From: an uncultured Alphaproteobacteria bacterium | GTDB lineage: Bacteria > Pseudomonadota > Alphaproteobacteria > Rhodobacterales > Rhodobacteraceae | Length of the DNA stretch: 64,000 nt | NCBI GenBank assembly: GCA_963832275.1 | Contig: CAWHTQ010000019.1 | Coordinates: 2,093,337-2,157,336, forward strand | Direction: 5' to 3' | Part shown: in pieces, positions 1 to 45,416 of the stretch | Position numbering within the stretch: the stretch's first letter is position 1 | Layout of the letters: each line of letters opens with the position of its first letter | Position numbers and translations under genes: made by a program | The notes under the pieces: generated by a model | The model's input: only the letters and a program-made list of their open reading frames with translations | Databases searched by the model: none | What the model was told of the DNA's origin: nothing

Positions 1-739
1 CCCGCAGCAGGTCCGCGAACCCCGCGACCTGATGGTCCGCCGTCGCCTCGCCCTTCGCCGCGGTGGCCAGGTGCGCCTCCCCGACCGTGCCCGCCGGGTT
101 CAGGTCGCTCGCGATCCATCCCCGCGCCACCGCCCCGATCGGCGGGATCGCCGCGCCCTCCGCCGCCGAGGCGAAATCCACGGCCGCGCCCATGTCCACG
201 GTGCCCGGCCGGAACGCGAGCATGAGCGACGTCTCCAGGTCCCCGCCATGGATGCCGAACGCCCGCTCGCGCGCCGAGTACATCCCGTCCGGCACCCCGA
301 ACGATCCCCACTGGCACCGCGCCGCCAGCATCCCCGCCCGGACCCGCAGCTCCCGCGTCAGGATCGACACGAGGTCCAGGTTGCCCCCGTGGCTGTTGAC
401 GCACACGATCTTGCGCACCCCCGCCCGCGCCACCGACAGCCCGATCTGCACCCACGCGTCCAGCGCCGTCGCCGCCTCCAGCGTCAGGGTCCCCCGCGCG
501 TCCAGATGCTCGTTCGACTTGCCCACGCACTGGATCGGCAGCACCCGCACGTCCAGCTCGGGCGGACAGGCGGCGCGCAGCCGCTCCAGCATCCCCGCCA
601 TGATGAAGCTGTCCGTCCCGACCGGCAGGTGCGGCCCGTGCTGCTCGATCGCCGCCGTCGGCAGCACCGCGATCACCGCCTCGGGGTCCAGCCCCTCGAA
701 CTCCGGCCGCCGGAACTCCGCCCAGTCCCGCGCGCTCAC
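1..739 (-). CDS. Creatininase-family amidohydrolase (creatinine amidohydrolase-like), 3' end beyond window
   Basis: Minus-strand translation from GTG at 739 reads VSARDWAEFRRPEFEGLDPEAVIAVLPTAAIEQHGPHLPVGTDSFI...CVNSHGGNLDLV, i.e. the EQHGPHLP..TD and HGGN motifs typical of PF02633. Open to position 1. GTG overlaps the upstream TGA (GTGA). Confidence 0.7.
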   Translation of the reverse strand, partial: MSARDWAEFRRPEFEGLDPEAVIAVLPTAAIEQHGPHLPVGTDSFIMAGMLERLRAACPPELDVRVLPIQCVGKSNEHLDARGTLTLEAATALDAWVQIGLSVARAGVRKIVCVNSHGGNLDLVSILTRELRVRAGMLAARCQWGSFGVPDGMYSARERAFGIHGGDLETSLMLAFRPGTVDMGAAVDFASAAEGAAIPPIGAVARGWIASDLNPAGTVGEAHLATAAKGEATADHQVAGFADLLR

Positions 740-1638
740 GCGTGCGCCCCGTAGGTCGCGTCGAGCCGGGAGCGCAGGTAGTCCGCCGCGCTCACGGGCG
801 GGTACTTCGCCGCCCCCGTCCCGGGCAGGGCGGCGATCACCTGATCCGGGTTCGGGTCGAGGAAGAACGCCACCGACCGCCGCTGCCGCGCCGGCGGCAG
901 GACGCGATGGGGCGTGGAGGCGTAGATGTCGTTCGTCCACCGCATCAGGCAGTCGCCGATGTTCACCACGTAGGCCCCCGGCACATGCGGCACGTCCGTC
1001 CAGTCCCCGCCGCGCGGGCGCACCTGCAGCCCGCCCTCCCCATCCGTCATCAGGAGGGTGATCGAGCCGTAATCGGTATGCGCCCCCGCCCCGATCTCCC
1101 CCGCCGCGCCGGTCGCGGGCGGGTAGTGCAGCAGGCGCAGCGTCGCCAGCGGCTCGCGCAGCGCCGCGTCGAAATGGTCCGGCGCCAGCCCCAGGTCGTC
1201 CGCGAACGCCCGGTGCACCCGCACGCCCAGATCCAGCGCCGCGTCGAAATAGGCCAGCATCGTGCCCCGGAACCCCGGCAGGTCCGGCCACGGGTTCGGC
1301 CCGCGGAACGGCTCGCCCGCCACGACCCTGGGGTCGTCCGCGGGCAGGTCGTAGCCGATCTGGAAGGTCTCCTTGGTGTCCACCTCGGAAGCGTGCTCGT
1401 CCAGCGTCTCCGCCCCCGGCCGGCCCCAGCCCCGGTTGAACGGATTGTCCTCGATCGAGAGCCCGGCCTTCGCCGCGCCCGGCAGGTCGAAGAACGCGCC
1501 CGCCCGCTCGAACACCTCGGCCCGAAGCGCCTCCGGCACCCCATGACCGGTCAGCAGGAAGAAGCCCGGCCCCCGGGCGGCCGCGCCGATGGCGGCGTGC
1601 GCGTCCGGCGCGGCGAGGTCGATGACGGGAATGCTCAT
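736..1638 (-). CDS. 2OG-Fe(II) oxygenase, isopenicillin-N-synthase-like
   Basis: 300-aa ORF MSIPVIDLAAPD...HTDYGSITLL...HRV, with the H-x-D...H facial triad and DIOX_N-like N-terminus. ATG at 1638 overlaps the upstream stop (ATGA). Confidence 0.8.
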   Translation of the reverse strand: MSIPVIDLAAPDAHAAIGAAARGPGFFLLTGHGVPEALRAEVFERAGAFFDLPGAAKAGLSIEDNPFNRGWGRPGAETLDEHASEVDTKETFQIGYDLPADDPRVVAGEPFRGPNPWPDLPGFRGTMLAYFDAALDLGVRVHRAFADDLGLAPDHFDAALREPLATLRLLHYPPATGAAGEIGAGAHTDYGSITLLMTDGEGGLQVRPRGGDWTDVPHVPGAYVVNIGDCLMRWTNDIYASTPHRVLPPARQRRSVAFFLDPNPDQVIAALPGTGAAKYPPVSAADYLRSRLDATYGAHA

Positions 1639-2226
1639 AGCGACGCGACCTTTCGTGCGACCTGTTTGAGATGGGCGGCCCGGCTTTCCGGCGTGGACGC
1701 GTCCATCCCGTAATGCATCGCGAACGCCGTCCGGCACCGCCGCGCGCAGACCGAGCGCACCCCGCGCAGCAGCGTCCGCTTGCCCGGCGCGCCCATGAGG
1801 GCCGTGAGCCAGCGTGACGCCCCCCCGGTGGTGAAGACGCCGAGCGTCCGGATATGCGTGAGCCCCGGCGCGATGTTCCCGCCTTCCGGCCCGGGCAGGC
1901 GGAACGCCACGCCGGGCACCAGCACCCGGTCGAGCCACCCCTTGAGCATCGCCGGCAGCCCGTACCACCATGTCGGATAGACGAAGATCAGCGCGTCGCA
2001 CCATTCGAGGTCCGCCACCTCCCGCGCCACCGGCTCCCGGTTCGCCGCCTCGTCGAGGTAGGCGTCCAGCTCCGCCGCGCCGCAGGCACGGCGCGAAACC
2101 CTCCGCGTAGAGGTCGCGCAGCCGCACCTCCGCTCGCTTCGCGGCGAGCCCGTCCGTCACCACGTCCCGCACGGCGGCGGTGAAGCTGTCCGCCTTCGGA
2201 TGGCAGTAGACCACCAGCGCCTTCAC
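1635..2226 (-). pseudogene. NAD(P)H dehydrogenase (quinone)/flavodoxin-like FMN reductase, frame-disrupted
   Basis: N-terminal VKALVVYCHPKADSFTAAVRDVV...DLYAEGFAPCL is in one frame and the C-terminal AREVADLEWCDALIFVYPTWWYGLPAMLKGWLDRV in another. A +1 indel lies near 2030-2090. It is a paralog of the intact downstream copy. May be a sequencing indel. Confidence 0.6.
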
Positions 2227-2804
2227 AGCGCCGCCATCTCCCGCCCGACGCGGTCCAGGAAACCGGCCCGCCGGTCCGCGGTCGCGTCGTTCATCCCGTA
2301 GAGCGCGAGGTAGCGCATCCGCTCCGGCCGGCAGACGTGCCAGAGGGACCGGGTGAAGTGCCGCCGCGGCGGATCGCCCGCCAGCAGCGCGCGCCGCCGC
2401 GCCCCGCCATAGGTCGTCACCGCCGCGAGCTTCCGGATATGGGTGAGCGCCGGCGTCACGTTCGGCCCGTCCAGGTCGAACGACACCCCCGGCAGGAACA
2501 CCCGGTCCAGGAACCCCTTCAGGATCGCGGGATACCCGAAGTTCCACACCGGGAAGACCATCACCAGGGCCTCGGCCCGCCGCAGCCGATCCACGTACTC
2601 CGCCACCGGCGCGGTGTTCGTCCCGGTGTCGTGATAGCCCCGCCGCTCCGCCCCGCTCAGCACCGGGTCGAACCCCTCGGCGTTCAGGTCGCAATCGTCC
2701 ACCGCCCACCCCCGCCCCTCCAGCGCCTCCACCGCCCGCGCGTGCAGCGCGGCCGAGAAGCTCTCGGGGCAGGGATGGGCGTAGAGCACCAGCGCCCGCG
2801 TCAT
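2223..2804 (-). CDS. NAD(P)H dehydrogenase (quinone) family protein (flavodoxin-like fold)
   Basis: MTRALVLYAHPCPESFSAALH...VMVFPVWNFGYPAILKGFLDRVF. Intact paralog of the previous gene, with a 4-nt overlap with its neighbour. Confidence 0.75.
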   Translation of the reverse strand: MTRALVLYAHPCPESFSAALHARAVEALEGRGWAVDDCDLNAEGFDPVLSGAERRGYHDTGTNTAPVAEYVDRLRRAEALVMVFPVWNFGYPAILKGFLDRVFLPGVSFDLDGPNVTPALTHIRKLAAVTTYGGARRRALLAGDPPRRHFTRSLWHVCRPERMRYLALYGMNDATADRRAGFLDRVGREMAAL

Positions 2805-4215
2805 CGGCGGCGCAGCCCCCCGTAGGCGTACATCCTCTCGAATCCCCAATGCGGGTCGTCCCAGGCGATCATCTTGCCGGGGTTCAGCAGCCCGTCCGGA
2901 TCCGCCTCGCGCTTGAAGGCGAGCTGCCGGTCGTCCACCGACTGCCGCCCGCCTTCCTCCAGCGTGTAGCGGTGCGGGTTGAAGATCATCGCGCCCGCCG
3001 CCTCGTGGATCGCCACGATCTCGTCCAGCCGCGCCTCCGTGGTGAACTTGACGAGCGACAGCCCCGCGAAGATCGTCCGCCCGCCGTCGCGCAGCGCCTC
3101 AAGATGCTGCAGCACCTCGGGCGACAGCTCCGCCCGCAGCCGCTCCACCAGCGCCAGCGGATCGTCCCCGCCATAGCGCACCTGCAGGTAGGTGATCGAC
3201 GGATCGACCTTGAGCGCCCGCAGCGTCGTGTGGTTCCACCCGTACTCGAACACCGGGCCGGGGGCCTTCTCCCAGCCCCCCTCACGCGAATCCCAGATCA
3301 GCCGCGCCGGGCGTCCGCGCCAGCAGCATGGCGAACGCGTCCATCGCGTGCGGCGCCACCATCAGCGCCGCCAGATGCGTGCCCGCCTCGACATGCGGCC
3401 GCACCCGCTGGAAGTACGCGAACGCCACCGGCGCCTCGAACACGGTCGCCAGCTTGATCAGCGTGCCGTCCGCGTCCGCCAGCGTCCGCGCGAAGCCCGC
3501 GGCCTCGCCGAAGTCCTCGAACGCCACCATCAGGTGCACCCAGTCATAGGCCGGCGCGAGCGGCATCTCGACCTCGGTGATGATCCCGTTCGTCCCGTAG
3601 GCGTGGGACACGCGCGCCAGCTCCTCGCCCCGGAACTCCAGCACCCGCGGCTCCGCCTCCATCGTCACCACGCGCAGCCGGATGATGTTCCCGGGGTCCC
3701 GCAGCGACCCCCAGGTGCACGACCCCACGCCACCCGAGCCGCCCGCGACGAACCCCCCGATCGTCGCCGTCGCCCAGGTCGAGCTGAACATCCGCAGCTC
3801 CTGGCCCGGACTGCGCGATGCACGCCGCGTCCAGGTCCTTGAGCAGGATCCCCGGCTCGCAGACCACCCGCCCCGGCGCGATCTCGCGCACCGCATTCAT
3901 GTGCTGCATGTGCATGACGCACCCGCCCGCCAGCGGCATCGCCTGCCCGTAATTGCCCGTCCCGGCCCCGCGCGTGGTCACCGGCACCCCGTGCGCATGG
4001 CACGTCGCCAGCACCTCGATCACCTCGGCCTCGGAGCGCGGCGAGACCACGAAATCCGCCTCCGCCCCGTCCAGCCGGTCCTTCAGCACCGGCGAGTACC
4101 AGAAGAAGTCGCGGCTCTTGGCGCGCACCGCCGCCGCCGACGTCTCGACGTCGAGATGCGCCAGCGCCGCCTTCGCCGCCTCCGCCCGCGAGGGCACGTC
4201 CGAGAAATCCTTCAT
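2801..4215 (-). pseudogene. FAD-linked oxidase (GlcD/D-lactate dehydrogenase-like), two frameshifts
   Basis: N-terminus MKDFSDVPS...VTTRGAGTGNYGQAMP (FAD-binding PCMH) starts at 4215. The middle (ELRMFSSTWATATIGGFVAGGSGG...) and C-terminal (VFEYGWNHTTL...IFNPHRYT) segments lie in two other frames, with shifts near 3800 and 3295. Confidence 0.65.
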
Positions 4216-5468
4216 GCCCGCTCCATCAGATGATCCAGCTCCGCGTAGCGCGGCAGCGTCCGGTCGATCGCGCGCCCGCCCCGCAGGACGATCCGGTCCG
4301 CCTGCGGCCGCGCCAGCAGCTCCGTCCACGACCGCGCGTCGCAGATCACGAGGTCCGCGGCTGCGCCGGCCGCGAGGCCCGGGGCCTCCCAGCCGCAGAT
4401 CGCGGCGGGCGTGGCGCCGAACGCCGCCACCCAGCCCGGCGCCGAATGGTCCAGATGCGCGATCCGCGTCGCCTCGCGCATGACCTCGATCATGTCGAGG
4501 TCGCCATAGGCGTAGAACGGATCGCGCGTGTTGTCGGACGCGAACGCCACCCGGATCCCCCGCTCGCGCATCTCGTGCACCAGCGTCACCCCCCGCCGCC
4601 GGGGCGTGCCCGGCCCGCGATCCTGCAGATAGAGGTTGCACATCGGCAGGCTGACCACGTCCAGCCCCGCCCGCGCCACGAGGTCCAGCGTGTCCATCGC
4701 CCGCGCCTCGTCCTGCGTGCCGAGCGAGCAGCAATGCCCCACCACGACAGGCGCGTCGAACCCCGTCTCGATCACCGCCTCCGCGATCACGCGCAGCGTC
4801 TCGGACGAGGCGTCCATCGTCTCGTCCACGTGGAAGTCCGCCGCCAGCCCGCGCGCGGCCGCCATCCCGAGGAACCCCCGCACCCGCGCCGCGATGTCCG
4901 GCACCGGATAGGTCACCATCCCCAGCACGCCGCCATGCTCCGCCACCAGGTCCGCCGTGTGCGCGAACGGCCCGTCCACCGAGAACCTGTCGCACCCGAT
5001 CAGGCAGGCCCCCTGCAGCTCGATCCGCCCCGCCCACCTCTCCCGCATCTGCGCGAAGACGGGCCAGGAGATGTCGTCCTGCGGCGGGATCGAATCCAGG
5101 TGCGTGCGCACCCGCGCCGTCCCGTGGGCGAAGGCGCAGCGCAGCGCGAAGTCCATCCGCGCGCTCACGTCCTGCGCCGTCCAGTTCGCCGCGCTGTCCG
5201 CCCGCACGGCGCCCAGCGCCCCGTCGAACGTCCCGTCCGGATTCGCCGCGCGGGGCCAGATGTGCCCCTTGTCCAGATGCGTGTGCATGTCCGTGAAGCA
5301 CGGCAGCACCATCGCCCCCGCCATCTCCACCCGCGTGCCGCCCCTGGGGGCCCCGTCCGTCAGCGCCCCGTCCGTCAGCGCCCCGTCCGCCAGGTGAAGG
5401 TCCGTCCGCACGAGGTCGCCCGCCGCCCCGATCAGGCAGGCGGGCACCGTGACGTCCCCGAGCGTCAT
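4212..5468 (-). CDS. Amidohydrolase, cytosine deaminase-like (Amidohydro_3)
   Basis: 418 aa with HTHLDKG metal-binding motif plus HVDE and DN(T) motifs, resembling CodA/AtzC-type deaminases. ATG at 5468. Contains an in-frame DGALTDGALTDGA tandem repeat. Confidence 0.8.
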   Translation of the reverse strand: MTLGDVTVPACLIGAAGDLVRTDLHLADGALTDGALTDGAPRGGTRVEMAGAMVLPCFTDMHTHLDKGHIWPRAANPDGTFDGALGAVRADSAANWTAQDVSARMDFALRCAFAHGTARVRTHLDSIPPQDDISWPVFAQMRERWAGRIELQGACLIGCDRFSVDGPFAHTADLVAEHGGVLGMVTYPVPDIAARVRGFLGMAAARGLAADFHVDETMDASSETLRVIAEAVIETGFDAPVVVGHCCSLGTQDEARAMDTLDLVARAGLDVVSLPMCNLYLQDRGPGTPRRRGVTLVHEMRERGIRVAFASDNTRDPFYAYGDLDMIEVMREATRIAHLDHSAPGWVAAFGATPAAICGWEAPGLAAGAAADLVICDARSWTELLARPQADRIVLRGGRAIDRTLPRYAELDHLMERA

Positions 5469-5497
5469 CGGCCCGGATGGCAGGTCCCGGAACCCCC

Positions 5498-6373
5498 TCA
5501 CGTCTCGCGCTTCAACGCCGATTCGTGCCAGTGCCGCAGCAGCAGGTGCGACAGCACCGACAGCGCCGCGAAGATGAACACCCCCATCGCCGCCACCAGC
5601 GCCAGCGCCGCGAACATGCGCGCGATGTTGAGCCGGTAGCCCGCCTCCTGGATGCGGAACGCCAGCCCCGCGCCCACGCCGCCCGTGCCCGCCACCAGCT
5701 CGGCCACGACGGCCCCGATCAGCGACAGCCCCCCGGCGATCTTCAGACCGCCCAGGAAGTAGGGCAGGGCGCTCGGCAGTTGCAGGTGCACCAGCCGCTG
5801 CCACCGGCTCGCCCCGTAGATGCGGAACAGGTCCCGCAGCCCCGAATCGACCGAGTTCAGCCCCAGCGTCGTCGAGGACAGCATCGGGAAGAACGCGACC
5901 AGCCATGCGCAGAGCAGCATCCCCGCCGTCTTGTTCTCCACGTAGATGAAGATCAGCGGCGCGATCGCCACCACCGGCGTCACCTGCAGGATCACCGCGA
6001 CGGGATAGAAGCTCATCTCCATCGCCTTGGACTGGTTGAACACGATCGCCAGCCCCGCGCCCCCGATCACCGCCAGCCCCAGCGCCATCAGCGTGATCCG
6101 CCCGGTCAGCAGCGCCGCGTCGAACAGGATCGGGAAGTCGTCCGTCAGGCTGCCCCAGACCAGGGCCGGTCCGGGCAGGATGTAGTGCGGGATCTCGTTC
6201 CAGACGACGATCCGGTCCCACATGAGGATCGCCACCACCACCACCAGCAGCGGCATCGCCCAGCGGCCGGTGCGCTCCCAGGCCGCGCGCCGCCGCCGCG
6301 CGGTCTCGTCCGCGTCCAGCTGCACGGGCGCGCTCGCCGGCACCGCCGTCGGGGCCGCGCTGGTCTCCGTCAT
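5498..6373 (-). CDS. ABC transporter permease, NitT/TauT family
   Basis: 291 aa MTETSAAP... with 6 predicted TM segments and a binding-protein-dependent transport signature. ATGA overlap with the upstream ATPase. Confidence 0.85.
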   Translation of the reverse strand: MTETSAAPTAVPASAPVQLDADETARRRRAAWERTGRWAMPLLVVVVAILMWDRIVVWNEIPHYILPGPALVWGSLTDDFPILFDAALLTGRITLMALGLAVIGGAGLAIVFNQSKAMEMSFYPVAVILQVTPVVAIAPLIFIYVENKTAGMLLCAWLVAFFPMLSSTTLGLNSVDSGLRDLFRIYGASRWQRLVHLQLPSALPYFLGGLKIAGGLSLIGAVVAELVAGTGGVGAGLAFRIQEAGYRLNIARMFAALALVAAMGVFIFAALSVLSHLLLRHWHESALKRET

Positions 6374-7140
6374 GCCGCCACCCTCTCGCCCATCGCCTCG
6401 TGCAGCGCCGCCGTCGCCGCCCGGCAGTGCGCCGCGTATTCGGGCGAGGTGCGGAAGTCCTCCGAGCGCGGGTAGGGCTCGTCCACCGCAAGCTCCGCGA
6501 TCACCCGCCCCGGCCGCGCCGCCATCACCACGATCCGGTTGGACAGGAACACGCTCTCGAAAACCGAATGGGTGACGAAGATCACCGTGCACCCGATCCG
6601 CCGCTGCAGCGCCAGCAGGTCGTCGTTCAGCTTGAACCGCGTGATCTCGTCCAGCGCCGCGAAGGGCTCGTCCATCAGGATCAGGCGCGGGCGCGTCACC
6701 ATCGCCCGCGCGATGGACACCCGCATCCGCATGCCCCCGGACAGCTCGCGCGGATACGCGTCCTCGAACCCGTCCAGGCCCACCTCGGCCAGCGCCTCGC
6801 GCACGTCCCCCTCGGCCTCCGCGTAGCTGCGCCCGCGCAGCCGCCAGGGCAGCCACACGTTCCGCGCCACCGTGGCCCAGGGCATCAGCGTCGCCTCCTG
6901 GAACACCACGCCCAGGTCCCCGATCCCGTGATCCCCCGACCATGCGATCCGCCCCGCGCTGGGCCGCATCAGGTCCGCGATCAGGCGCAGGGCCGTCGAC
7001 TTCCCGCACCCGGACGGGCCCAGGAGCGACAGGAAATCCCCCTGCCGCACCGCGAGGTCCATCCCCCGCAGCGCCACCACGTCGGTGCCGAAGGTCTTGC
7101 CGACCCCGACCATCGACAGGAGAGGCGCGCCGCCGCTCAC
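6370..7140 (-). CDS. ABC transporter ATP-binding protein, NitT/TauT family
   Basis: Walker A GPSGCGKST, signature LSGGMRMRV, Walker B ILMDEP. A GTG start at 7140 gives VSGGAPLLSMVGVGKTFG and overlaps the upstream stop (GTGA). Confidence 0.85.
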   Translation of the reverse strand: MSGGAPLLSMVGVGKTFGTDVVALRGMDLAVRQGDFLSLLGPSGCGKSTALRLIADLMRPSAGRIAWSGDHGIGDLGVVFQEATLMPWATVARNVWLPWRLRGRSYAEAEGDVREALAEVGLDGFEDAYPRELSGGMRMRVSIARAMVTRPRLILMDEPFAALDEITRFKLNDDLLALQRRIGCTVIFVTHSVFESVFLSNRIVVMAARPGRVIAELAVDEPYPRSEDFRTSPEYAAHCRAATAALHEAMGERVAA

Positions 7141-8129
7141 GGCCGCAGGTCGGCGCCCACGTTCTTGTTGGTGAACGCGGTCGTGAACGCGGCCTGCCAG
7201 TCGATCGCCCCGTCCACCACGCCCGATTCCACCATCAGGTCGAAGAAGTCCTTCACCGTCGCCTCGGTCATCGCGCCGATGCCCATCTCGTCCGCCTCGC
7301 CCGAATCCACGATCCCGCGCGCCTTCATCATGTCCCGCGCGAAGTCGATCTTGTCCTGGCTCATGTCCGGGTTCGCCTCCAGGATCAGGGCGTCCGCCCC
7401 CGACGCGTCGCCGTAGAGATAGGTGTACCACCCCTTCACCGACCCATCGACGAAGCACGCCACCTGCTCGGGCGTCTCCTCGATCGTCTGCGCCATCGTC
7501 TCGATCGTCGTCGCGTAGGACGAGTACCCCGCATCCGCGATCAGGAACACGTCCGGCACGATCCCGGACGCCTTCTCGACCGCGTAGGGCTCCGAGCTGA
7601 GGTAGCCCTGCATCCCCACCCCCTCGTCGGCGATGAACGGCGCGGGGTTGAACGTGTAGGGCTGGCGCTGCTCCACGGTGAACCCGTGCGCGGCGATCAT
7701 CCACTGGTAGTAGCTCGCGAACCCGTTGTCCCCGATCAGCAGCGTCAGGTCCTTCAGGTCGTCGAACGTCTCGGCCACCCCGGGATGCGCCAGGATCACC
7801 TGCGGATGCTTCTGGAAGATCGCGGCCACCGCCACGACCGGGATGCCCTCGCCGACCGCGTTGAACGCCTGCAGCAGGTCGCCGCCCATGTGGTAGTCGA
7901 TCCGCCCGGCCAGCATCAGGGCGCGGTTGTTCACCTGCGGCCCCCCCGGCACGATCGTCACGTCCAGCCCGCATTCCGCGTAGGTCCCGTCCGCGACCGA
8001 CTGGTAGAACCCGCCATGCTCGGCCTGCGCGACCCAGTTGGTGCCGAAGCTCACCGGGATGAGGTCCTGCGCGGCGGCGGGCGCGGCCAGGATCGCGAGC
8101 GCGAAGGCGGGGGTCGTGGATCGGATCAT
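7137..8129 (-). CDS. ABC transporter substrate-binding protein, NMT1/THI5-like
   Basis: MIRSTTPAFALAILAAPAAAQ signal peptide, then an SsuA/ThiY-like periplasmic domain. ATG at 8129. Confidence 0.8.
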   Translation of the reverse strand: MIRSTTPAFALAILAAPAAAQDLIPVSFGTNWVAQAEHGGFYQSVADGTYAECGLDVTIVPGGPQVNNRALMLAGRIDYHMGGDLLQAFNAVGEGIPVVAVAAIFQKHPQVILAHPGVAETFDDLKDLTLLIGDNGFASYYQWMIAAHGFTVEQRQPYTFNPAPFIADEGVGMQGYLSSEPYAVEKASGIVPDVFLIADAGYSSYATTIETMAQTIEETPEQVACFVDGSVKGWYTYLYGDASGADALILEANPDMSQDKIDFARDMMKARGIVDSGEADEMGIGAMTEATVKDFFDLMVESGVVDGAIDWQAAFTTAFTNKNVGADLRP

Positions 8130-8327
8130 GGGGTCCTCCCTGGGGGCGTCGTTGCGTCCAGATTGTGCCCGGCGGCGGGGCCGGGGAAAGGGCGCGCCCC
8201 GTCCTCCCGGCCGCCTCCGCCGATCCTCCGCCCGTTTTCGCGCCATGTCGAGGGCGGCGCCTCATCCTTGGGCATCTCCCGCGCCGCGCCGCTGGACGGC
8301 GCCCGCCCCGCGCGCCATCCCGGCCCC

Positions 8328-8738
8328 ATGGCACGCCCCCCGATCTTCGACGCGGTCACGTCCCCGGACCTCCCCGCCCCCCTCGCCAACTACGCACACG
8401 CGGTCCTCGCCCCCCCCGGCGCCCGCCTCCTGGTGACGTCCGGCCAGCTCGCCATGCGCCCCGACGGCACCATCCCCGAAGGGGCCGAGGCCCAAGCGCA
8501 CCAGTGCTTCCACCAAATCGCCGCCATCCTAGCCGCCGCCGGCGCCGGCCCCGCCAACGTCCTGCGCCTCAACGCCTACGTCACCGCCCGCGAGCACATG
8601 CCCGCCTACATGACCGCCCGCGACGCCTTCCTCGGGGGCCTCACGCCGCCCCCGGCCTCGACGCTGGTGATCGTGGGAGGGTTCACGCGGGCGGAGTTTC
8701 TGGTGGAGGTGGAGGCGACGGCCGCCATAGGGGCCTGA
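8328..8738 (+). CDS. RidA/YjgF family enamine/imine deaminase
   Basis: 136 aa MARPPIFDAVTSPDLPAPLANYAHAV...VGGFTRAEFLVEVEATAAI, the canonical RidA fold signature. Divergent from the ABC operon. Confidence 0.85.
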   Translation: MARPPIFDAVTSPDLPAPLANYAHAVLAPPGARLLVTSGQLAMRPDGTIPEGAEAQAHQCFHQIAAILAAAGAGPANVLRLNAYVTAREHMPAYMTARDAFLGGLTPPPASTLVIVGGFTRAEFLVEVEATAAIGA

Positions 8739-8799
8739 GCGGCCTCGGACGGGCACCCGGACGGACCCGCTGCGGGGCGGGCCCGTCGCCCGATCTCGT

Positions 8800-9630
8800 T
8801 CAGCGTCCGCGCCGGACGTGCCGTACCCCGCCCAGACCGCCGAGCCCCGCAATCAGGAGCAGGGCGGTGGCCGGCAGCGGGATCGGCGACGGCTCGCCGA
8901 AGATGAAGTCGTCCATCACCACGAAGTCGCCGCCTACGATATCCTCGAAGGCCTCGCCGTCGAAGACGGAGTTGCCCGTCACGATCTCGACGCTCGCGAC
9001 CACCGGGGCGTCGAACACGATCCCGAGGAAGGAGAACGTCTCCTCCCCCTCCGTCGCCGGCACCGCGCCGTTGAAGAGCAGGTCGCCGTCTATATCGAAG
9101 AAGGACATCGTCGTCAGGTCCGCGAGGTCCACGTCCGAGAACACGACGCCCAGACCGGCGGTCAGGGCGCTCACGTCGGGCCGCGCAGGGTCGAAGAACT
9201 CCACGATCGTCACGTTGCTGCCGACCGGCGTGAAGAGGCGTTCCTGGCTGAAGGGCTCGAAGACGAAGTCCTGACCGAACTGGACGGGCTCGCCGGAGGC
9301 GGCCGTCGAGCTGAGCTGGAAGCCGTCGCCGGGGGTGGAGAACTCGATCCCCCGGGCCCGCGGCGCGGCAGGGAAGTTGAAGAAGTCGCCGGGGAACCCG
9401 TTGGGGTCGGCGACCGCGTCCGGCGCCGCGTCCCAGTCGATCTGCCGCCTGCCGCCGTCGAAGTTGACCGGCTGGTTGGGGTTGAGCGCGCCCAGCTCGG
9501 CGCGGAAGTCGTCCACGACGCCCTGGATCGCCGCCGCGTCCGTCCCGGTCCCGAGAAACACGGTCGCCGCTTGGGCAGCCGGCGCGAGTCCTGCGGTGAG
9601 GACCGCACCAAATATCAGGCCAATTTTCAT
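8800..9630 (-). CDS. Secreted protein with VPLPA-CTERM sorting domain
   Basis: N-terminal signal MKIGLIFGAVLTAGLAPAAQA. C-terminus IPLPATALLLIAGLGGLGGVRHVRRGR matches the VPLPA-CTERM architecture of motif, TM helix and basic tail. AT-richer start with GGAGAG RBS. Confidence 0.6.
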   Translation of the reverse strand: MKIGLIFGAVLTAGLAPAAQAATVFLGTGTDAAAIQGVVDDFRAELGALNPNQPVNFDGGRRQIDWDAAPDAVADPNGFPGDFFNFPAAPRARGIEFSTPGDGFQLSSTAASGEPVQFGQDFVFEPFSQERLFTPVGSNVTIVEFFDPARPDVSALTAGLGVVFSDVDLADLTTMSFFDIDGDLLFNGAVPATEGEETFSFLGIVFDAPVVASVEIVTGNSVFDGEAFEDIVGGDFVVMDDFIFGEPSPIPLPATALLLIAGLGGLGGVRHVRRGR

Positions 9631-9997
9631 CGAACGTACCTCTCCAATTGGGAGCGCCGCGCCGACGCGCAGGCTCGACCGCGTTGTCCAGGTGGGCCGC
9701 GTTCACCGCCGCCCACGTCACGGTCGCACGAACCTCGCGCCCTTACCAAACGTAAACGCGTTCCCTCGGCATTCTCCCGCGCATCGCCGCGGGGGGGCGT
9801 CGCGACCCGAGCCGACGGTCCGGGGCGGGCGGCGCCCCGCGCTTTCCCTCCGAGACGCCGTTGTCGGGACCGCCGGATCGCGGTCCATGACGGTTGCCGA
9901 TCACCGATTTGTCGGCGGTCATCCCGCTCGGCATCTCTACGCACGCCGCGCGGGCGCGGCCCTCGCCGAACGGGCCCTGTCGGGCGGGGCCACGTCC

Positions 9998-10978
9998 CTA
10001 GGCCGCCTCCACCCCCAGGGCCTCCCCCGCCCGCCAGCACGCCACACGCCCGGCGCCCTTCGCCTCCAGCGGCGGGCGCTCCCTCCGGCACCGCTCCACG
10101 GCCAGCGGACAGCGGGGGTTGTACGCGCACCCCGAGGGCGGATCGATCGGGTCGGGGATCTCGCCCACCGGCGGCGGGACCTCGCGCCCGAACCCGTCCA
10201 GCTTCGGCGCCGCGTCCAGCAGCATCCGCGTGTAGGGGTGCTGCGGCGCGCCGAACAGGTCGTCCGGCGCCGCCTCCTCCACCAGCCGGCCGAGGTAGAG
10301 CACCCCGATCCGGTCCGCCATGTGCCGCACCACCGTCAGGTCGTGGGAGATGAACACGTAGGTCAGCCCCAGCTCGTCCTTCAGGTCGCTCATCAGGTTC
10401 AGCACCTGCGCCTGCACCGACACGTCGAGCGCGCTCGTCGGCTCGTCGCACACGATCAGCCGCGGCCCCGAGGCCAGCGCCCGCGCCACGCAGATGCGCT
10501 GCCGCTGCCCGCCCGAGAACTGGTGCGGGAACTTCCCCGCATCCTCCGCCGCCAGCCCCACCTGCTCCAAGAGCCGCTCCGCGACGCCGGCGGTGTCCGC
10601 CCCGCGCGCGGCCAGCGGCTCCGCCACGATGTCCCCCACCCGCCAGCGCGGGTTCAGGCTCGCATAGGGGTCCTGGAAGATCATCTGCACCTCGGCCCGC
10701 ACGTCCGCCGCCCGCGGCCCCGCGATGTCCGTGCCCGCGATCTCCACCGACCCCTCCGTGGGCCGCAGCAGCCCCACGATCATCTTCCCGATGGTCGACT
10801 TGCCCGACCCGCTCTCGCCGACCAGCGCGTAGGTCGTCCGCTCGCCCACGTCGAAGGACACGTCCGACACCGCCGTCAGCATCCGCTTCGGCAACCGCTC
10901 GATCACCCGGTTGAGCCAGGGCTTCGAGACGTCGAACACCCGGCTCAGCCCCCGGACGCAGACGAGCGGCGCGCTCAT
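9998..10978 (-). CDS. dppF: Dipeptide/oligopeptide ABC transporter ATP-binding protein
   Basis: Walker A GESGSGKST, signature FSGGQRQR, Walker B IVCDEPTSALD, and a C-terminal oligopeptide_F extension with CPLAVERC. Confidence 0.85.
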   Translation of the reverse strand: MSAPLVCVRGLSRVFDVSKPWLNRVIERLPKRMLTAVSDVSFDVGERTTYALVGESGSGKSTIGKMIVGLLRPTEGSVEIAGTDIAGPRAADVRAEVQMIFQDPYASLNPRWRVGDIVAEPLAARGADTAGVAERLLEQVGLAAEDAGKFPHQFSGGQRQRICVARALASGPRLIVCDEPTSALDVSVQAQVLNLMSDLKDELGLTYVFISHDLTVVRHMADRIGVLYLGRLVEEAAPDDLFGAPQHPYTRMLLDAAPKLDGFGREVPPPVGEIPDPIDPPSGCAYNPRCPLAVERCRRERPPLEAKGAGRVACWRAGEALGVEAA

Positions 10979-10984
10979 GCGGAC

Positions 10985-11078
10985 GTGCCGCGCCATGCGC
11001 ACGCCATGCGCATGGGATGTGCATGCGATGTGCATGGGTTGTGCATCAGCATTTCACGCCGCATCGGCCGCGCCCACC
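10985..11078. repeat. Intergenic element with tandem CCATGCAC(A)-type units (copy 1)
   Basis: gccatgcgcacgccatgcgcatgggatgtgcatgcgatgtgcatgggttgtgcatcagcat, flanked by cggccgcgccc. Its reverse complement shares the exact 19-mer CCATGCACAACCCATGCAC and the flank GGCGCGGCCG with the copy at 49.6 kb. Confidence 0.5.
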
Positions 11079-12032
11079 GGGAACCAGCACGCCGCGCGCC
11101 CCCCGTCCGCCGCGAGCGTCGGTCCCGGCTCCGCGCGACATCGGGCCGCCGCCCGCGGGCACCGCGGATGGAACGCGCACCCCTGCGGCAGCGCCCCCAG
11201 CCGCGGCATCGCGCCCGGTATCTGGTGCAGCCGCGCCCGCCCCGCCGAGGCCGCGGGCGTCGCCCCCATCAGCCCCTCGGTATAGGGATGCCTTGGATTC
11301 CCAAGGACTTCGCGCACCGGCCCCAGCTCCGCCAGCCGTCCGGCATACATCACCGCGACCCGGTCGGCCGTCTCCGCGATCACGCCCATGTCATGCGTCA
11401 CCAGCATCACCGCCGTCCCCCGCTCCCGGCAGAGCCGCCGCAGCAGCGCCGTGATCTGCGCCTGCACGCTCACGTCCAGCGCCGTCGTCGGCTCGTCCGC
11501 GATCACCAGATCCGGCTCCGCGCACAGCGCCAGCGCGATCACCACCCGCTGCCGCATTCCGCCGGAGAACTCATGGGGATACGAGCCGATCCTCTCGGCC
11601 GCCGAGGGAATGCCGACCTCCTCCAGCGCCGCCACCGCACGCGCTTCGCGCCTCCGATTGGGACACGTCGAGATGCGTCCGCACCGTCTCCGCGATCTGC
11701 TCGCCGATGGGCAGGAGCGGGTTGAGCGAGGTCAGCGGGTCCTGGAACACCATCCCGATCCGCTTGCCCCGGATGCGCCGCATCGCGGCCGGCGCGGCGT
11801 CGTCGATCCGCTCCCCGTTCAGCAGGACCCGCCCCGACGCGATCCGCGCCGGCGGGTCCAGCAGCCCGATGACCGCGTTCCCCGTCATGGACTTGCCCGC
11901 CCCGGACTCGCCGACGACCCCCAGGATCTCCCCAGGCGCGATGGTCCAGGACACGCCGTCCACCGGTCGGACGATGCCGCCGCGCGTGGGGATCTCGACC
12001 GTCAGGTCCCGCAGCTCGAGGACCGGGATCAT
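11054..12032 (-). pseudogene. dppD: Dipeptide ABC transporter ATP-binding protein, one frameshift
   Basis: N-terminal MIPVLELRDLTVEI...GESGAGKSM... and C-terminal ...FSGGMRQRVVIALAL...ADEPTTALD lie in different frames. A single-base insertion near 11640 (gaggcgcga-agcg-cgtgcgg). ATGA overlap at the start. Confidence 0.75.
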
Positions 12033-13003
12033 CGCAGCCGAGGGTTCAGGGCGTCGCGCAGCCAGTCGCCCAGCAGGTTCACCGCCAGCGCCAGCGCCAG
12101 GAGCGTCAGGGCCGGGAACAGCAGGATCCACCACTCCCCGGAGAACAGGAACCCCTGGCCGATGCGGATCAGCGTGCCGAGGGAGGGCTGCGTCGGCGGC
12201 GCGCCGACGCCGAGGAAGCTCAGCGTCGCCTCCGCGATGATCGCCAGCGCCAGCGAGATCGTCGCGATCACCAGCACGGGCGAGAGCACGTTCGGCAGGA
12301 TGTGGCGCAGCATGATCGCGGGGCCGGTCCGGCCGATCAGGCGCGCGGCGGCCACGTACTCCTTGTTCGCCTCGACCATCGCCGCGCCGCGCACGACGCG
12401 GGCGAACTGCACCCAGTCGCCCAGCCCGATGGCGAGGATCAGGACCCAGATCGCCATCTGGTCGCGGTACTCGACCGGGGTGAACCCCTTGGCGATGCCG
12501 AAGACCAGCATGGCCACCAGGATCGACGGGAAGGTCAGCTGCACGTCCGCGACGCGCATGATGATCGTGCCGGTCCAGCCGCCGACATAGCCCGCGATCA
12601 GGCCGAGCGTGACGCCCAGCACCATCGCGAAGGCGACCGCCGCCGCGCCGACGAACAGCGAGATGCGCAGCCCGTGGAGGATGGTGGAGAACACGTCCCG
12701 CCCCTGATCGTCCGTGCCCAGCACGAAGCTCTCCCCGGTGAAGGCGTTGGGCTCCATCGGCCGGGAGAAGCCGTTCATCAGGTCGAGCGTGGCGGGGTCG
12801 AACGGGTCGTGCGGCGCGATGAGCGGCGCGAAGATCGCGGCCAGCACCAGGAGGGCGGTCACGGTCGCCGCCGCCATCGCGACGGGCGAGCGGCGGAAGC
12901 TGTAGGCGACGTCGCTGTCCCAGGCCGTGCGCAACCGTCCGGGGGCGGCGATCGCCTCCTGCGCGGCGAGGGCCGTGCGCGTCTCGGTGGGGACGTCCGT
13001 CAC
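12029..13003 (-). CDS. dppC: Dipeptide ABC transporter permease
   Basis: BPD_transp_1 permease ...GTDDQGRDVFS... with 6 TM segments. GTG at 13003 overlaps the dppB stop (GTGA). Confidence 0.85.
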   Translation of the reverse strand: MTDVPTETRTALAAQEAIAAPGRLRTAWDSDVAYSFRRSPVAMAAATVTALLVLAAIFAPLIAPHDPFDPATLDLMNGFSRPMEPNAFTGESFVLGTDDQGRDVFSTILHGLRISLFVGAAAVAFAMVLGVTLGLIAGYVGGWTGTIIMRVADVQLTFPSILVAMLVFGIAKGFTPVEYRDQMAIWVLILAIGLGDWVQFARVVRGAAMVEANKEYVAAARLIGRTGPAIMLRHILPNVLSPVLVIATISLALAIIAEATLSFLGVGAPPTQPSLGTLIRIGQGFLFSGEWWILLFPALTLLALALAVNLLGDWLRDALNPRLR

Positions 13004-13977: not shown

Positions 13978-14052
13978 GGGCCGAGCGTGGGCGCCGGGGC
14001 CGGGGGGGTCAAGCGCGCATCGCGCCGGTCCCCGCGCCCCGGCGCCGGGCGC

Positions 14053-15606: not shown

Positions 15607-15734
15607 GGGGGTCCCGGGTGCTGCGCCGCGCGGGGGTGCCGGCGGCGCAGGGGACCCCGCCGACACCCCCGTGACAACCCGCCGCAGGCGGGCGGGCGGT
15701 CACGGACGTGTGAGGCGCAGGGGCGCGAGCGCCC

Positions 15735-17315: not shown

Positions 17316-17467
17316 GGGTGATCTCCCTCATGTTTGTGGCCCGCACGATGGGCGCGGCGGGATGGCGGCGCAAGGCGAGGCGCGCCCGCGCGGGCGTCGC
17401 CGGCCGCCCGCTGGACAAGGACGGGGCATCGCGGGCCATATCGGGCGGAGGGCCGGGGAGGGACGCC

Positions 17468-18763: not shown

Positions 18764-18812
18764 CCGGCTCCGCCGGGGCAGCGTGGCGGAAAAATCGTCT
18801 GGGAGGACCGAC

Positions 18813-19832: not shown

Positions 19833-19835
19833 GTC

Positions 19836-44219: not shown

Positions 44220-44239
44220 CCGGCCCCGCGGGGGCGCCT

Positions 44240-44618: not shown

Positions 44619-44695
44619 TCTGTCCCTTCGTTTAAGGTCTCGTTAAACGTCCAGTGGCGTTAGTCGTTGCGAACGGTGACAGCTGGAGGCGCCTC

Positions 44696-45137: not shown

Positions 45138-45248
45138 TCGGGGTTGACCGCCCGGCCGCTGCGCGTAGAAGGCGCGGACGCGGCCCGTGCGCGCGGCCCC
45201 GGCCGCGCGCGCGCCGCACCTCATCCTAGCCGCAGGAGCCTCCGAGCC

Positions 45249-45416
45249 ATGGCGAAGCCGACGACCATCAAGATCCGCCTGAACTCGACCGCGGGCACCG
45301 GCCATTTCTACGTGACCAAGAAGAACGCCCGCACGATGACCGAGAAGTTCTCGATCCGGAAGTTCGATCCGGTCGCCCGCAAGCATGTCGAGTACAAGGA
45401 AGGCAAGATCAAGTGA
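45249..45416 (+). CDS. rpmG: 50S ribosomal protein L33
   Basis: [55 protein letters not shown], 55 aa. Confidence 0.9.

What the first reader, a model, noticed from the sequence alone, without database searches (positions are those of the whole stretch)
1..8738. Putative N-heterocycle (creatinine/pyrimidine-like) catabolic island with its own ABC importer
One strand carries, in order, a ThiY/SsuA-like binding protein, ABC ATPase and permease, a cytosine-deaminase-like amidohydrolase (HTHLDKG), an FAD-linked oxidase, two flavodoxin-like NAD(P)H oxidoreductases, a 2OG-Fe(II) oxygenase and a creatininase-family hydrolase. All are joined by 4-nt ATGA/GTGA overlaps. A divergent RidA enamine deaminase sits alongside. 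Cytosine deaminases double as creatinine deaminases and RidA-type proteins (RutC) act in pyrimidine breakdown. The combination suggests an uncharacterised pathway with no regulator in view.
Basis: inference. Interest (0 to 1): 0.55.

Follow-up and report, generated by a model that had tools for sequence, protein, structure and literature searches.

The report
Probable pterin/folate breakdown gene cluster
This is a real, widely conserved operon of marine and root-associated alphaproteobacteria that imports and breaks down a nitrogen heterocycle; its closest structurally studied counterpart is labelled as folate (pterin) catabolism, not creatinine or cytosine breakdown.

Summary
Window 1-8738 carries, on the minus strand, nine genes joined by eight ATGA/GTGA overlaps: an NMT1-type binding protein, ABC ATPase, permease, CodA-like amidohydrolase, FAD_binding_4 flavoenzyme, two Flavodoxin_2 reductases, a 2OG oxygenase and a creatininase-family hydrolase. 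A Rid-family gene is divergent. Three things were missed. The flavoenzyme has two frameshifts and the second reductase has one, probably assembly errors because such shifts occur all over the window. The last gene runs off the window.

The module keeps the same order in almost all of the 80 best Rhodobacterales loci and recurs, rearranged, in Hoeflea, Mesorhizobium, Rhizobium and Agrobacterium. The Hoeflea phototrophica flavoenzyme is PDB 6V42, titled 'flavin oxygenase ... involved in folate catabolism'. It is 56% identical to the repaired window protein and lies in the same gene set.

The family names mislead. The amidohydrolase lacks CodA Gln156. The hydrolase lacks creatininase Tyr121, Glu122 and Trp174. 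The Rid protein lacks RidA Arg105.

Best reading: uptake and degradation of a folate-derived pterin. The substrate and the individual steps are inferred. I found no paper describing the pathway. It is a new member of a sparsely documented kind, of moderate interest.

The parts
8328..8738 (+). Rid-family (YjgF/L-PSP) protein of 136 aa, divergent from the operon. It is not a canonical RidA.
   Evidence: PF01042 at 3e-19. TIGR00004 scores 44.8 bits against a cut-off of 106. The RidA Arg105 position is Ser (PASTLVIV against PARSCVEV) in the window, L001, Octadecabacter, Hoeflea and Mesorhizobium copies. The gene is present next to the cluster in 46 of 60 loci with enough upstream sequence.
8130..8327 (.). 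198-nt divergent intergenic region, presumed to hold the promoters for the Rid gene and the operon.
   Evidence: No Rfam family matches, even at E up to 10. No sigma-70-like consensus is found. The sequence is not conserved across 50 related loci.
7137..8129 (-). Periplasmic substrate-binding protein of the NMT1/THI5 family, 330 aa, with an N-terminal signal-like peptide (MIRSTTPAFALAILAAPAAAQD).
   Evidence: PF09084 at 1e-15. Only weak PDB matches: ThiY 3IX1 and 4NMY at about 8e-4. 93% identical to L001 and 56% to the Hoeflea orthologue.
6370..7140 (-). ABC transporter ATPase, 256 aa.
   Evidence: PF00005 at 7e-30. The best NCBIfam matches are members of the nitrate, taurine and sulfonate group, all below their cut-offs. 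GTGA overlap with the binding-protein gene.
5498..6373 (-). ABC transporter permease, 291 aa.
   Evidence: PF00528 at 6e-22. Weak matches to NtrB, TauC and SsuC. ATGA overlap with the ATPase gene.
4212..5501 (-). CodA-like metal-dependent amidohydrolase, 429 aa. It is probably a deaminase of an amino-heterocycle and not a cytosine deaminase in the strict sense.
   Evidence: NF005759 scores 597 bits against a cut-off of 403, whereas the E. coli-type NF006685 scores 100 against 483. The best PDB matches are CodA and 5-methylcytosine deaminase, at about 1e-40 by profile. His73, His75, His224, Glu227, His256 and Asp323 are invariant in the family. CodA Gln156 lies in an insertion that this family lacks, and Asp314 is Asn.
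2801..4215 (-). FAD_binding_4 flavoenzyme, 470 aa after repair. It is the orthologue of PDB 6V42 ('flavin oxygenase involved in folate catabolism'). In the window it is read in three frames because of single-base insertions at about 3807 and 3311.
   Evidence: Frame switches with no stop codon. The insertions are located against L001. The repaired protein is 94% identical to L001 and 56% identical to 6V42 over 459 residues, E 1e-170. The L001 copy matches 6V42 at 3e-167.
2223..2804 (-). Flavodoxin_2 (NQO-like) NAD(P)H oxidoreductase 1, 193 aa.
   Evidence: PF02525 at 1e-28. The best PDB matches are NADPH quinone oxidoreductase 3LCM and NQO2/NQO1. 54% identical to the first of the two Hoeflea copies.
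1635..2226 (-). Flavodoxin_2 NAD(P)H oxidoreductase 2, 196 aa after repair, with a single-base insertion at about 2079.
   Evidence: Frame switch shown and the insertion located against L001. The repaired protein is 92% identical to L001 and 53% to the second Hoeflea copy. Both copies are present in 55 of 63 loci.
736..1638 (-). 2-oxoglutarate/Fe(II) oxygenase of the DIOX_N type, 300 aa. It is an accessory gene of the Rhodobacterales version of the cluster.
   Evidence: PF14226 and PF03171. The best PDB matches are an EFE-like enzyme (9OVH, 4e-55) and thymine dioxygenase (5C3P, 2e-45). Present in 41 of 63 loci. Absent from the Hoeflea, Mesorhizobium, Rhizobium and Agrobacterium versions.
2..739 (-). 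Creatininase-family (PF02633) metal hydrolase. 246 aa are seen; the 3' end is cut by the window edge. It is not a true creatininase.
   Evidence: PF02633 at 2e-62. TIGR04448 scores 68 bits against 235 and MftE scores 79 against 172. The counterparts of Glu34, His36, Asp45, His120, His178 and Glu183 are kept. Tyr121 and Glu122 are replaced (HGGN in place of HYEN) and Trp174 is missing. Present in 52 of 63 loci, and retained although relocated next to the Rid gene in Hoeflea and Mesorhizobium.

Best explanation
The region is the Rhodobacterales version of a conserved catabolic operon. It takes up an oxidised pteridine and destroys the ring system to release nitrogen. The substrate is most likely a folate breakdown product such as 6-formylpterin, pterin-6-carboxylate or a related pterin.

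Shown here:
- The gene set and its order.
- The translational coupling through 4-nt overlaps.
- Orthology of every core component to the Hoeflea phototrophica cluster. The FAD enzyme of that cluster is PDB 6V42, titled a flavin oxygenase involved in folate catabolism.

Inferred steps:
1. The NMT1-type ABC system imports the heterocycle.
2. The accessory 2OG oxygenase resembles thymine 7-hydroxylase. In Rhodobacterales it may oxidise a ring side chain, for example a C6 methyl, hydroxymethyl or formyl group to carboxyl. This would widen the substrate range.
3. The CodA-like amidohydrolase removes an exocyclic amino group from the pterin or from an aminopyrimidine product.
4. The two NQO-like flavoproteins use NAD(P)H to reduce the pteridine, a quinonoid intermediate, or the flavin.
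5. The FAD_binding_4 enzyme oxygenates and opens the ring.
6. The creatininase-family hydrolase cleaves the resulting cyclic amide or N-acyl-aminopyrimidine. A family member, ArfB, is a formamidopyrimidine deformylase.
7. The Arg-less Rid protein handles a reactive imine or enamine that is not a 2-imino acid.

The three frameshifts are most likely assembly errors, so the operon is probably intact in the organism.
For: Operon structure:
- Nine co-directional genes with eight 4-nt overlaps.

Conservation:
- Strict order in almost all of the 80 best loci; more than 584 species genomes hold a relative of the amidohydrolase.
- In loci with enough sequence: flavoenzyme 61 of 63, both reductases 55 of 63, hydrolase 52 of 63, transporter 57 of 60, Rid gene 46 of 60.
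- The same parts stay together after rearrangement in Hoeflea, Mesorhizobium, Rhizobium and Agrobacterium.

Link to folate:
- PDB 6V42/6V43 matches the flavoenzyme at 3e-167.
- Its title names folate catabolism.
- It is 100% identical to Hoeflea phototrophica EDQ32914.1, whose gene sits in the cluster.
- All window proteins except the 2OG oxygenase have 52-65% identical counterparts there in matching order.
- The window proteins group with this orthologue set (51-58% identity) rather than with paralogous modules (27-45%).

Substrate class:
- CodA-type catalytic residues are kept but cytosine-specific Gln156 is absent.
- Creatinine-specific residues are absent from the hydrolase.
- In R. leguminosarum a PaoABC-like molybdenum enzyme of the xanthine dehydrogenase family is adjacent. 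This class oxidises N-heterocycles and aromatic aldehydes (established knowledge).

Frameshifts as errors:
- About 12 further frame switches without stop codons occur across the window, including mgtE in five frames.
- The repaired flavoenzyme is the best conserved protein of the cluster: 94% amino-acid identity to L001, against 88.6% nucleotide identity over the whole cluster.
Against: - The link to folate rests on one PDB entry title. I found no paper describing the pathway in ten literature searches.
- You et al. 2022 (PMC9513972) state that folate degradation beyond deaminopteroate is unresolved.
- The window flavoenzyme is only 56% identical to 6V42, so substrate specificity could differ.
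- No carboxypeptidase G, AbgAB or known pterin deaminase gene is linked to the cluster.
- The order of steps and every individual enzyme role are inferred from family chemistry.
- The published pterin/lumazine route uses unrelated enzymes: a molybdenum dehydrogenase, an isomerase and UbiD (PMC12391406).
- If the frameshifts are real, the operon is inactive in this strain.
Confidence: 0.6

Rival explanations
1. Creatinine, N-methylhydantoin or cytosine/pyrimidine catabolism. The amidohydrolase would act as a cytosine/creatinine deaminase, the PF02633 protein as a creatininase, and the Rid protein like RutC.
For: - Family-level names fit. NF005759 'cytosine deaminase' is exceeded at 597 bits against 403. 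PF02633 matches at 2e-62. PF01042 matches.
- Some sources name homologues 'cytosine/creatinine deaminase'.
Against: - CodA Gln156 has no counterpart and Asp314 is Asn.
- The E. coli-type CodA model scores 100 bits against a cut-off of 483.
- The creatininase equivalog scores 68 against 235, and Tyr121, Glu122 and Trp174 are not conserved.
- RidA Arg105 is replaced by Ser.
- The cluster contains no hydantoinase, N-carbamoylsarcosine amidase, creatinase, sarcosine oxidase, RutA or RutB.
- A deaminase and a ring-opening hydrolase for the same creatinine molecule would be redundant.
- The orthologous cluster is labelled folate catabolism.
Confidence: 0.1
2. Catabolism of another amino-N-heterocycle that is not folate-derived. 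Candidates are a thiamine pyrimidine (HMP, FAMP), a purine derivative, or a plant or algal pyrimidine. On this view the folate label of 6V42 is a working hypothesis or applies only to the Hoeflea enzyme.
For: - The binding protein is NMT1/THI5-like, and its only PDB matches include ThiY, the FAMP-binding protein.
- Paralogous modules with the same parts exist on a Mameliella plasmid and in Klebsiella, so the toolkit is evidently reused for different substrates.
- Identity to 6V42 is only 56%.
- No folate-specific gene is linked to the cluster.
Against: - There is no TPP or other riboswitch.
- No ThiD, TenA or purine genes lie in the cluster.
- The window cluster falls in the same orthologue group as Hoeflea and is distinct from the paralogous modules.
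- The core synteny is identical.
Confidence: 0.22
3. A decaying remnant that no longer functions in this organism. On this view the frameshifts in the flavoenzyme and the second reductase are real.
For: Three uncompensated single-base insertions relative to the closest relative lie within 1.8 kb of the operon. In Octadecabacter antarcticus 307 the first Flavodoxin_2 gene is also split, and the cluster is flanked by transposases.
Against: - The same kind of frame switch occurs about 12 more times in the window. Examples are mgtE in five frames, guanine deaminase in pieces, and an OppD-like ATPase. This points to indel errors in the assembly.
- The repaired frames contain no stop codons and keep the GC3 signature.
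- The repaired flavoenzyme is 94% identical to L001.
Confidence: 0.08

Closest known systems
Hoeflea phototrophica DFL-43 cluster containing PDB 6V42/6V43 ('flavin oxygenase ... involved in folate catabolism'), with its Mesorhizobium, Rhizobium and Agrobacterium counterparts
   Same: It has the same core parts: an NMT1 binding protein, ATPase, permease, CodA-like amidohydrolase, FAD_binding_4 enzyme, Flavodoxin_2 reductases, a creatininase-family hydrolase and a Rid protein lacking Arg105. Pairwise identity to the window proteins is 52-65%, and the transporter-to-reductase order is identical.
   Different: In the window and most Rhodobacterales the hydrolase is at the end of the main operon and a 2OG oxygenase is inserted before it. 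In Hoeflea and Mesorhizobium the hydrolase lies with the Rid gene on the divergent arm and there is no 2OG oxygenase. Rhizobium and Agrobacterium have one reductase and a divergent LysR regulator.
Cytosine deaminase CodA and 5-methylcytosine deaminase (PDB 1K6W, 4R7W) and AtzC
   Same: It has the same amidohydrolase fold family and keeps the full set of metal and catalytic residues: HxH, His, Glu, His and Asp.
   Different: Only a remote match: profile E-value about 1e-40, and 100 bits against the 483-bit cut-off of the E. coli-type CodA model. The Gln156 loop (FPQEG) is absent and Asp314 is Asn. It belongs to the separate NF005759 family.
Creatinine amidohydrolase of Pseudomonas putida (PDB 1J2T) and other PF02633 members (MftE, ArfB, IolN)
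   Same: It has the PF02633 fold and conserved counterparts of Glu34, His36, Asp45, His120, His178 and Glu183.
   Different: It has HGGN in place of HYEN and lacks Trp174. It scores below the cut-offs of all four characterised equivalogs.
Cupriavidus sp. LA-1 pterin/lumazine degradation cluster (PMC12391406)
   Same: It is also a bacterial route for destroying pteridine rings that begins with deamination of a pterin.
   Different: It uses a molybdenum lumazine dehydrogenase, a tetraoxypteridine isomerase and a UbiD/UbiX decarboxylase to reach xanthine. None of these is in the window cluster.
Rut pyrimidine pathway (RutA-G)
   Same: It also contains a Rid-family protein (RutC) and flavin reductase-type partners, and it releases nitrogen from a heterocycle.
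   Different: There is no RutA-type monooxygenase, RutB isochorismatase-like amidase or RutD. The transporter type is different. The Rid protein lacks the RidA arginine.

Membership tests
Orthologue group of the Hoeflea phototrophica 'folate catabolism' cluster (PDB 6V42) | Full-length, high-scoring match of the FAD_binding_4 protein to 6V42 | tested here: met
   The L001 copy matches at 3e-167 over residues 12-468. The repaired window protein is 56% identical over 459 residues, E 1e-170.
Orthologue group of the Hoeflea phototrophica 'folate catabolism' cluster (PDB 6V42) | The same set of partner genes lies around the flavoenzyme | tested here: met
   L086 carries the creatininase-family gene, Rid gene, NMT1 binding protein, ATPase, permease, amidohydrolase, FAD_binding_4 and two Flavodoxin_2 genes. 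Each matches its window counterpart at 52-65% identity.
Orthologue group of the Hoeflea phototrophica 'folate catabolism' cluster (PDB 6V42) | Closer to this group than to paralogous modules | tested here: met
   The flavoenzyme and amidohydrolase are 51-58% identical to Hoeflea, Mesorhizobium, Rhizobium and Agrobacterium. They are 27-45% identical to the Mameliella plasmid and Klebsiella modules.
Orthologue group of the Hoeflea phototrophica 'folate catabolism' cluster (PDB 6V42) | Activity on folate or a pterin | not testable with these tools
   Only the PDB title is available. No publication was found.
Cytosine deaminase (CodA, E. coli type) | Metal ligands and catalytic residues: His61, His63, His214, Glu217, His246, Asp313 | tested here: met
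   His73, His75, His224, Glu227, His256 and Asp323 are invariant in 18 family members and align to CodA.
Cytosine deaminase (CodA, E. coli type) | Gln156, which recognises the pyrimidine N1/O2 edge | tested here: not met
   In the profile alignment to 1K6W, Gln156 and Glu157 of FPQEG are an insertion with no counterpart in this family (consensus LQAACLIGCD).
Cytosine deaminase (CodA, E. coli type) | Score above the curated model cut-off | tested here: not met
   NF006685 scores 100 bits against 483 and NF005748 scores 158 against 438. The separate model NF005759, also named 'cytosine deaminase', is exceeded at 597 against 403.
Creatininase (creatinine amidohydrolase, TIGR04448) | Score above the equivalog cut-off | tested here: not met
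   68.4 bits against 235.
Creatininase (creatinine amidohydrolase, TIGR04448) | Substrate and metal residues Tyr121, Glu122 and Trp174 of the P. putida enzyme | tested here: not met
   The alignment to 1J2T shows HGGN opposite HYEN and no Trp opposite Trp174. Glu34, His36, Asp45, His120, His178 and Glu183 are conserved.
RidA (TIGR00004, 2-iminoacid deaminase) | Arg105, which binds the substrate carboxylate | tested here: not met
   Ser is at this position in all five cluster-associated copies aligned with E. coli RidA. The model scores 44.8 bits against 106.
TauT/NitT-type ABC importer | An NMT1/SsuA-like binding protein, one ATPase and one permease encoded together | tested here: met
   PF09084, PF00005 and PF00528 lie in consecutive overlapping genes. 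The best NCBIfam neighbours are NtrCD, TauB/C and SsuB/C, all below cut-off.
Cupriavidus-type pterin/lumazine pathway | Molybdenum lumazine dehydrogenase, tetraoxypteridine isomerase and UbiD/UbiX decarboxylase | tested here: not met
   None of the nine gene products matches these families. The pathway is described in PMC12391406.
Rut pyrimidine pathway | RutA luciferase-like monooxygenase and RutB isochorismatase-like amidase | tested here: not met
   Pfam shows no such domains in the cluster.

The most novel reading that the evidence does not exclude
The cluster encodes an undescribed route for destroying the pteridine ring. An EncM-like FAD_binding_4 oxygenase would be fed by a pair of NQO-type reductases. 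A CodA-like deaminase, a creatininase-fold ring or formamide hydrolase, and an Arg-less Rid protein would complete the breakdown. The route would be widespread in marine Roseobacter-group bacteria and in rhizobia. That would make folate photoproducts and algal or plant pterins a regular nitrogen source. The thymine-hydroxylase-like 2OG oxygenase would be a Rhodobacterales-specific extension to side-chain-bearing pterins. The same six-part toolkit, seen in paralogous modules in Klebsiella and on a Mameliella plasmid, would be a general and still unnamed strategy for amino-N-heterocycle breakdown.
Probability: 0.35. Interest if true: 0.6.

Novelty: new member of a known kind. Interest (0 to 1): 0.38.

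Why it matters
Bacterial destruction of the pterin half of folate is poorly documented in the open literature. One route, through lumazine to xanthine, was published in 2025 (PMC12391406). A 2022 study (PMC9513972) states that the steps beyond deaminopteroate are unknown.

This cluster appears to be a second, enzymatically different route. It occurs in hundreds of species of Roseobacter-group bacteria and rhizobia, organisms that live with algae and plants. Three of its proteins are routinely annotated as 'cytosine deaminase', 'creatininase' and 'RidA', and the residue checks here show those names to be misleading.

If the pterin assignment is confirmed, it would correct a large number of annotations. 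It would also give vitamin B9 turnover in the sea and the rhizosphere a genetic marker. For this particular window the finding is a further, ordinary copy of that cluster.

Tried and rejected
- Riboswitch or conserved leader. Rfam gave nothing at gathering thresholds over the whole window, nor at E up to 10 in the 8050-8400 leader. An alignment of 50 intergenic regions showed no conserved block.
- Linked regulator or folate gene in Rhodobacterales. Clustering the flanking ORFs of the fetched related loci found only unrelated recurrent families: Opp-type ATPases, an SDR and others.
- Promoter and terminator scan. Results were at chance level.
- Mobile-element signature. There are no tRNA genes in the window and G+C is flat.
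- Literature. Ten searches found no paper on this cluster or on 6V42/6V43. Fan et al. 2013 (PMC3557803) is not held.
- Thiamine-pyrimidine salvage. Considered because of the ThiY-like binding protein. Rejected as the lead reading because there is no TPP riboswitch and no ThiD or TenA, and because of the orthology to the folate-labelled cluster.
- Real pseudogenisation. Considered and ranked low after the window-wide count of frame switches.
- Structure model. The AlphaFold model of the Hoeflea-group flavoenzyme was of moderate quality (pLDDT 69). I used it only to retrieve the PDB entry description, not for active-site inference.

Full report
**Observation**

The window has about 73% G+C, so ORF lists are crowded with spurious frames. 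Codon-position G+C analysis and a six-state segmentation place all genes of 1-8154 on the minus strand. In operon order the genes are:

| Coordinates | Product |
|---|---|
| 7137-8129 | NMT1/THI5-type binding protein |
| 6370-7140 | ABC ATPase |
| 5498-6373 | Permease |
| 4212-5501 | Amidohydrolase with DMHTHLDKGH |
| 2801-4215 | FAD_binding_4 protein |
| 2223-2804 | Flavodoxin_2 protein 1 |
| 1635-2226 | Flavodoxin_2 protein 2 |
| 736-1638 | DIOX_N/2OG-Fe(II) oxygenase |
| 2-739 | Creatininase-family protein, running off the window |

All eight junctions are ATGA or GTGA overlaps. A Rid-family gene lies divergently at 8328-8738, 198 nt from the binding-protein start.

The FAD enzyme is read in three frames and the second Flavodoxin_2 gene in two. 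The closest relative is a MAG contig, L001/L004, with 88.6% nucleotide identity over the whole cluster. Alignment to it locates three uncompensated single-base insertions at about 3807, 3311 and 2079.

A fourth insertion lies in the neighbouring OppD-like gene at about 11646. A window-wide scan finds about a dozen further frame switches with no stop codon. These include mgtE split over five frames (51192-52580) and a guanine deaminase in pieces.

After the inserted bases are removed, the flavoenzyme is 94% identical to its L001 counterpart. It is the best conserved protein of the cluster. I therefore regard the frameshifts as assembly indel errors, though only reads can settle this.

**Conservation**

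The amidohydrolase has thousands of homologues. The best 120 are 68-86% identical and nearly all come from Roseobacter-group bacteria. A scan of species-representative genomes found at least 584 relatives.

The 80 best loci keep the same gene order. Among loci with enough sequence:

- The flavoenzyme is present in 61 of 63.
- Both reductases are present in 55 of 63.
- The PF02633 hydrolase is present in 52 of 63.
- The 2OG oxygenase is present in 41 of 63.
- The transporter is present in 57 of 60.
- The Rid gene is present in 46 of 60.

The flanks differ between genera and contain no recurrent regulator. In Octadecabacter antarcticus the module is flanked by transposases. There is no riboswitch match and no conserved leader.

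**The key link to folate**

The intact flavoenzyme matches PDB 6V42/6V43 at 3e-167 over its full length. I built a model only to query the PDB by fold. It returned the entry description: 'Crystal structure of the flavin oxygenase with cofactor bound involved in folate catabolism', released in December 2020.

The 6V42 sequence is 100% identical to Hoeflea phototrophica DFL-43 EDQ32914.1. That gene lies in a cluster with a divergent arm carrying the creatininase-family and Rid genes. The main arm carries the NMT1 binding protein, ATPase, permease, amidohydrolase, FAD_binding_4 and two Flavodoxin_2 genes. The same layout occurs in another Hoeflea and in Mesorhizobium australicum.

Every window protein except the 2OG oxygenase has a 52-65% identical counterpart there, and the two reductases match in order. 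An identity matrix separates two groups. The orthologue group comprises Rhodobacterales, Hoeflea, Mesorhizobium, Rhizobium and Agrobacterium, at 51-58% identity between orders. The paralogous modules, built from the same kinds of parts, lie on a Mameliella alba plasmid and in Klebsiella pneumoniae, at 27-45% identity.

In Rhizobium and Agrobacterium plasmids the cluster carries a divergent LysR regulator and a single reductase. In R. leguminosarum WSM1325 a PaoABC-like molybdenum oxidoreductase lies next to it.

**Tests of the family names**

- *Amidohydrolase.* It exceeds the cut-off of NF005759, named 'cytosine deaminase', but not those of the E. coli-type models. A profile alignment to E. 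coli CodA conserves the metal and catalytic residues. CodA Gln156 falls in an insertion that this family lacks, and Asp314 aligns with Asn.
- *PF02633 protein.* It scores far below the creatininase, MftE, IolN and ArfB equivalogs. It keeps the core metal and catalytic residues but has HGGN in place of HYEN and lacks Trp174 of the P. putida enzyme.
- *Rid protein.* It scores below the RidA model and has Ser where RidA has Arg105, in all five cluster copies examined. The E. coli RidA sequence used for this was recalled from memory.
- *2OG oxygenase.* It is closest to an EFE-like enzyme and to fungal thymine dioxygenase.
- *Reductases.* They resemble NQO-type quinone reductases.

**Interpretation**

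The best-supported reading is an importer-plus-pathway operon for a folate-derived pterin or a closely related pteridine.

- Shown: the anatomy, the translational coupling, the conservation, and the orthology to the 6V42 cluster.
- Resting on the depositors' title alone: the folate assignment.
- Inferred from family chemistry: the role of each enzyme. These roles are deamination by the CodA-like enzyme, reduction by the NQO-like pair, oxygenative ring opening by the flavoenzyme, amide or formamide hydrolysis by the PF02633 enzyme, imine handling by the Rid protein, and side-chain oxidation by the accessory 2OG oxygenase.

**Literature**

Open literature does not describe this route. You et al. 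2022 (PMC9513972) report carboxypeptidase G and a pterin deaminase in Variovorax and say later steps are unknown. The Cupriavidus LA-1 pathway (PMC12391406) uses a molybdenum dehydrogenase, an isomerase and UbiD, none of which is present here. Ten literature searches found no paper on 6V42 or on this cluster.

**Rivals**

- Creatinine, cytosine or Rut-like catabolism is disfavoured by the residue tests and by the missing partner enzymes.
- A different amino-heterocycle substrate remains possible. Identity to 6V42 is 56%, and the toolkit is clearly reused in paralogous modules.
- Real pseudogenisation is unlikely, given the frame-switch density across the window.

**Verdict**

The finding is real. 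Its general idea, N-heterocycle catabolism with a dedicated importer, is right. Its specific substrate guess is probably wrong. The cluster is a further member of a conserved, sparsely documented kind rather than something new in category. Interest is moderate. The pathway chemistry is still unpublished and the standard annotations are misleading, but this window adds only another copy.

Noticed in passing
window 2074, 3303, 3805, 11637, 29956, 36911, 50117, 50812, 51459, 51863, 52331, 52996: Frame switches between adjacent same-strand coding segments with no stop codon at the boundary occur all over the window, roughly one per 5 kb. Where a close relative is available, each is a single-base insertion in a G/C run. 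This suggests an error-prone, probably long-read, assembly.
   Followed up: partly
window 51192-52580 (+): A magnesium transporter gene (mgtE; TIGR00400 match on one piece) is split over five reading frames within 1.4 kb.
   Followed up: partly
window 49781-51050 (-): A guanine deaminase gene (NF006679/TIGR02967 matches on two pieces) is broken into several frames. It is a second amidohydrolase-superfamily deaminase, of a different branch (guanine deaminase/cog0402), about 42 kb from the cluster.
   Followed up: partly
window 9998-17327 (-): An Opp/Dpp-type ABC transporter operon lies next to the cluster. It has two ATPases, two permeases and two SBP_bac_5 binding proteins, with a frameshift in the OppD-like gene at about 11646. 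It is syntenic with the closest relative L001 only.
   Followed up: partly
window 17273-21420 (+): A second NMT1/SsuA-family ABC importer (binding protein, ATPase, permease) is preceded by a class-III aminotransferase resembling HemL/GntE. The substrate is unknown.
   Followed up: no
window 8800-9630 (-): A secreted protein with a VPLPA-CTERM sorting domain (TIGR03370, 31 bits against a cut-off of 25) and no Pfam match lies immediately beyond the Rid gene.
   Followed up: partly
window 44254-44614 (+), within 43397-46084: RNase P RNA (RF00010, 266 bits) sits in a stretch of about 2.7 kb with no coding signal in the G+C frame analysis.
   Followed up: no
L088 (Klebsiella pneumoniae plasmid p2B30155) 543-9335; L090 (Mameliella alba pKUB257) 4330-12371: Paralogous modules carry the same kinds of parts: an NMT1-type ABC importer, an amidohydrolase, a FAD-binding oxidoreductase, a creatininase-family protein, a Rid protein and a reductase. 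They have their own LysR or TetR regulator. Identity to the window proteins is only 27-45%. Mameliella alba has both this paralogue and the orthologue (L077).
   Followed up: partly
L087 (Rhizobium leguminosarum WSM1325 pR132501) 1-11368; L089 (Agrobacterium pAt1) 2989-11402: The Rhizobiaceae versions of the cluster carry a divergent LysR regulator, a single Flavodoxin_2 reductase and a convergent Rid gene. In R. leguminosarum a PaoABC-like molybdenum oxidoreductase is adjacent. Homologues of the flavoenzyme are on 141 plasmid or chromid records, 109 of them Rhizobium.
   Followed up: partly
L002 (Octadecabacter antarcticus 307) 12676-13244: The first Flavodoxin_2 gene of the cluster is split into two ORFs (111 and 78 aa), and the whole module is flanked by transposase genes.
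   Followed up: no
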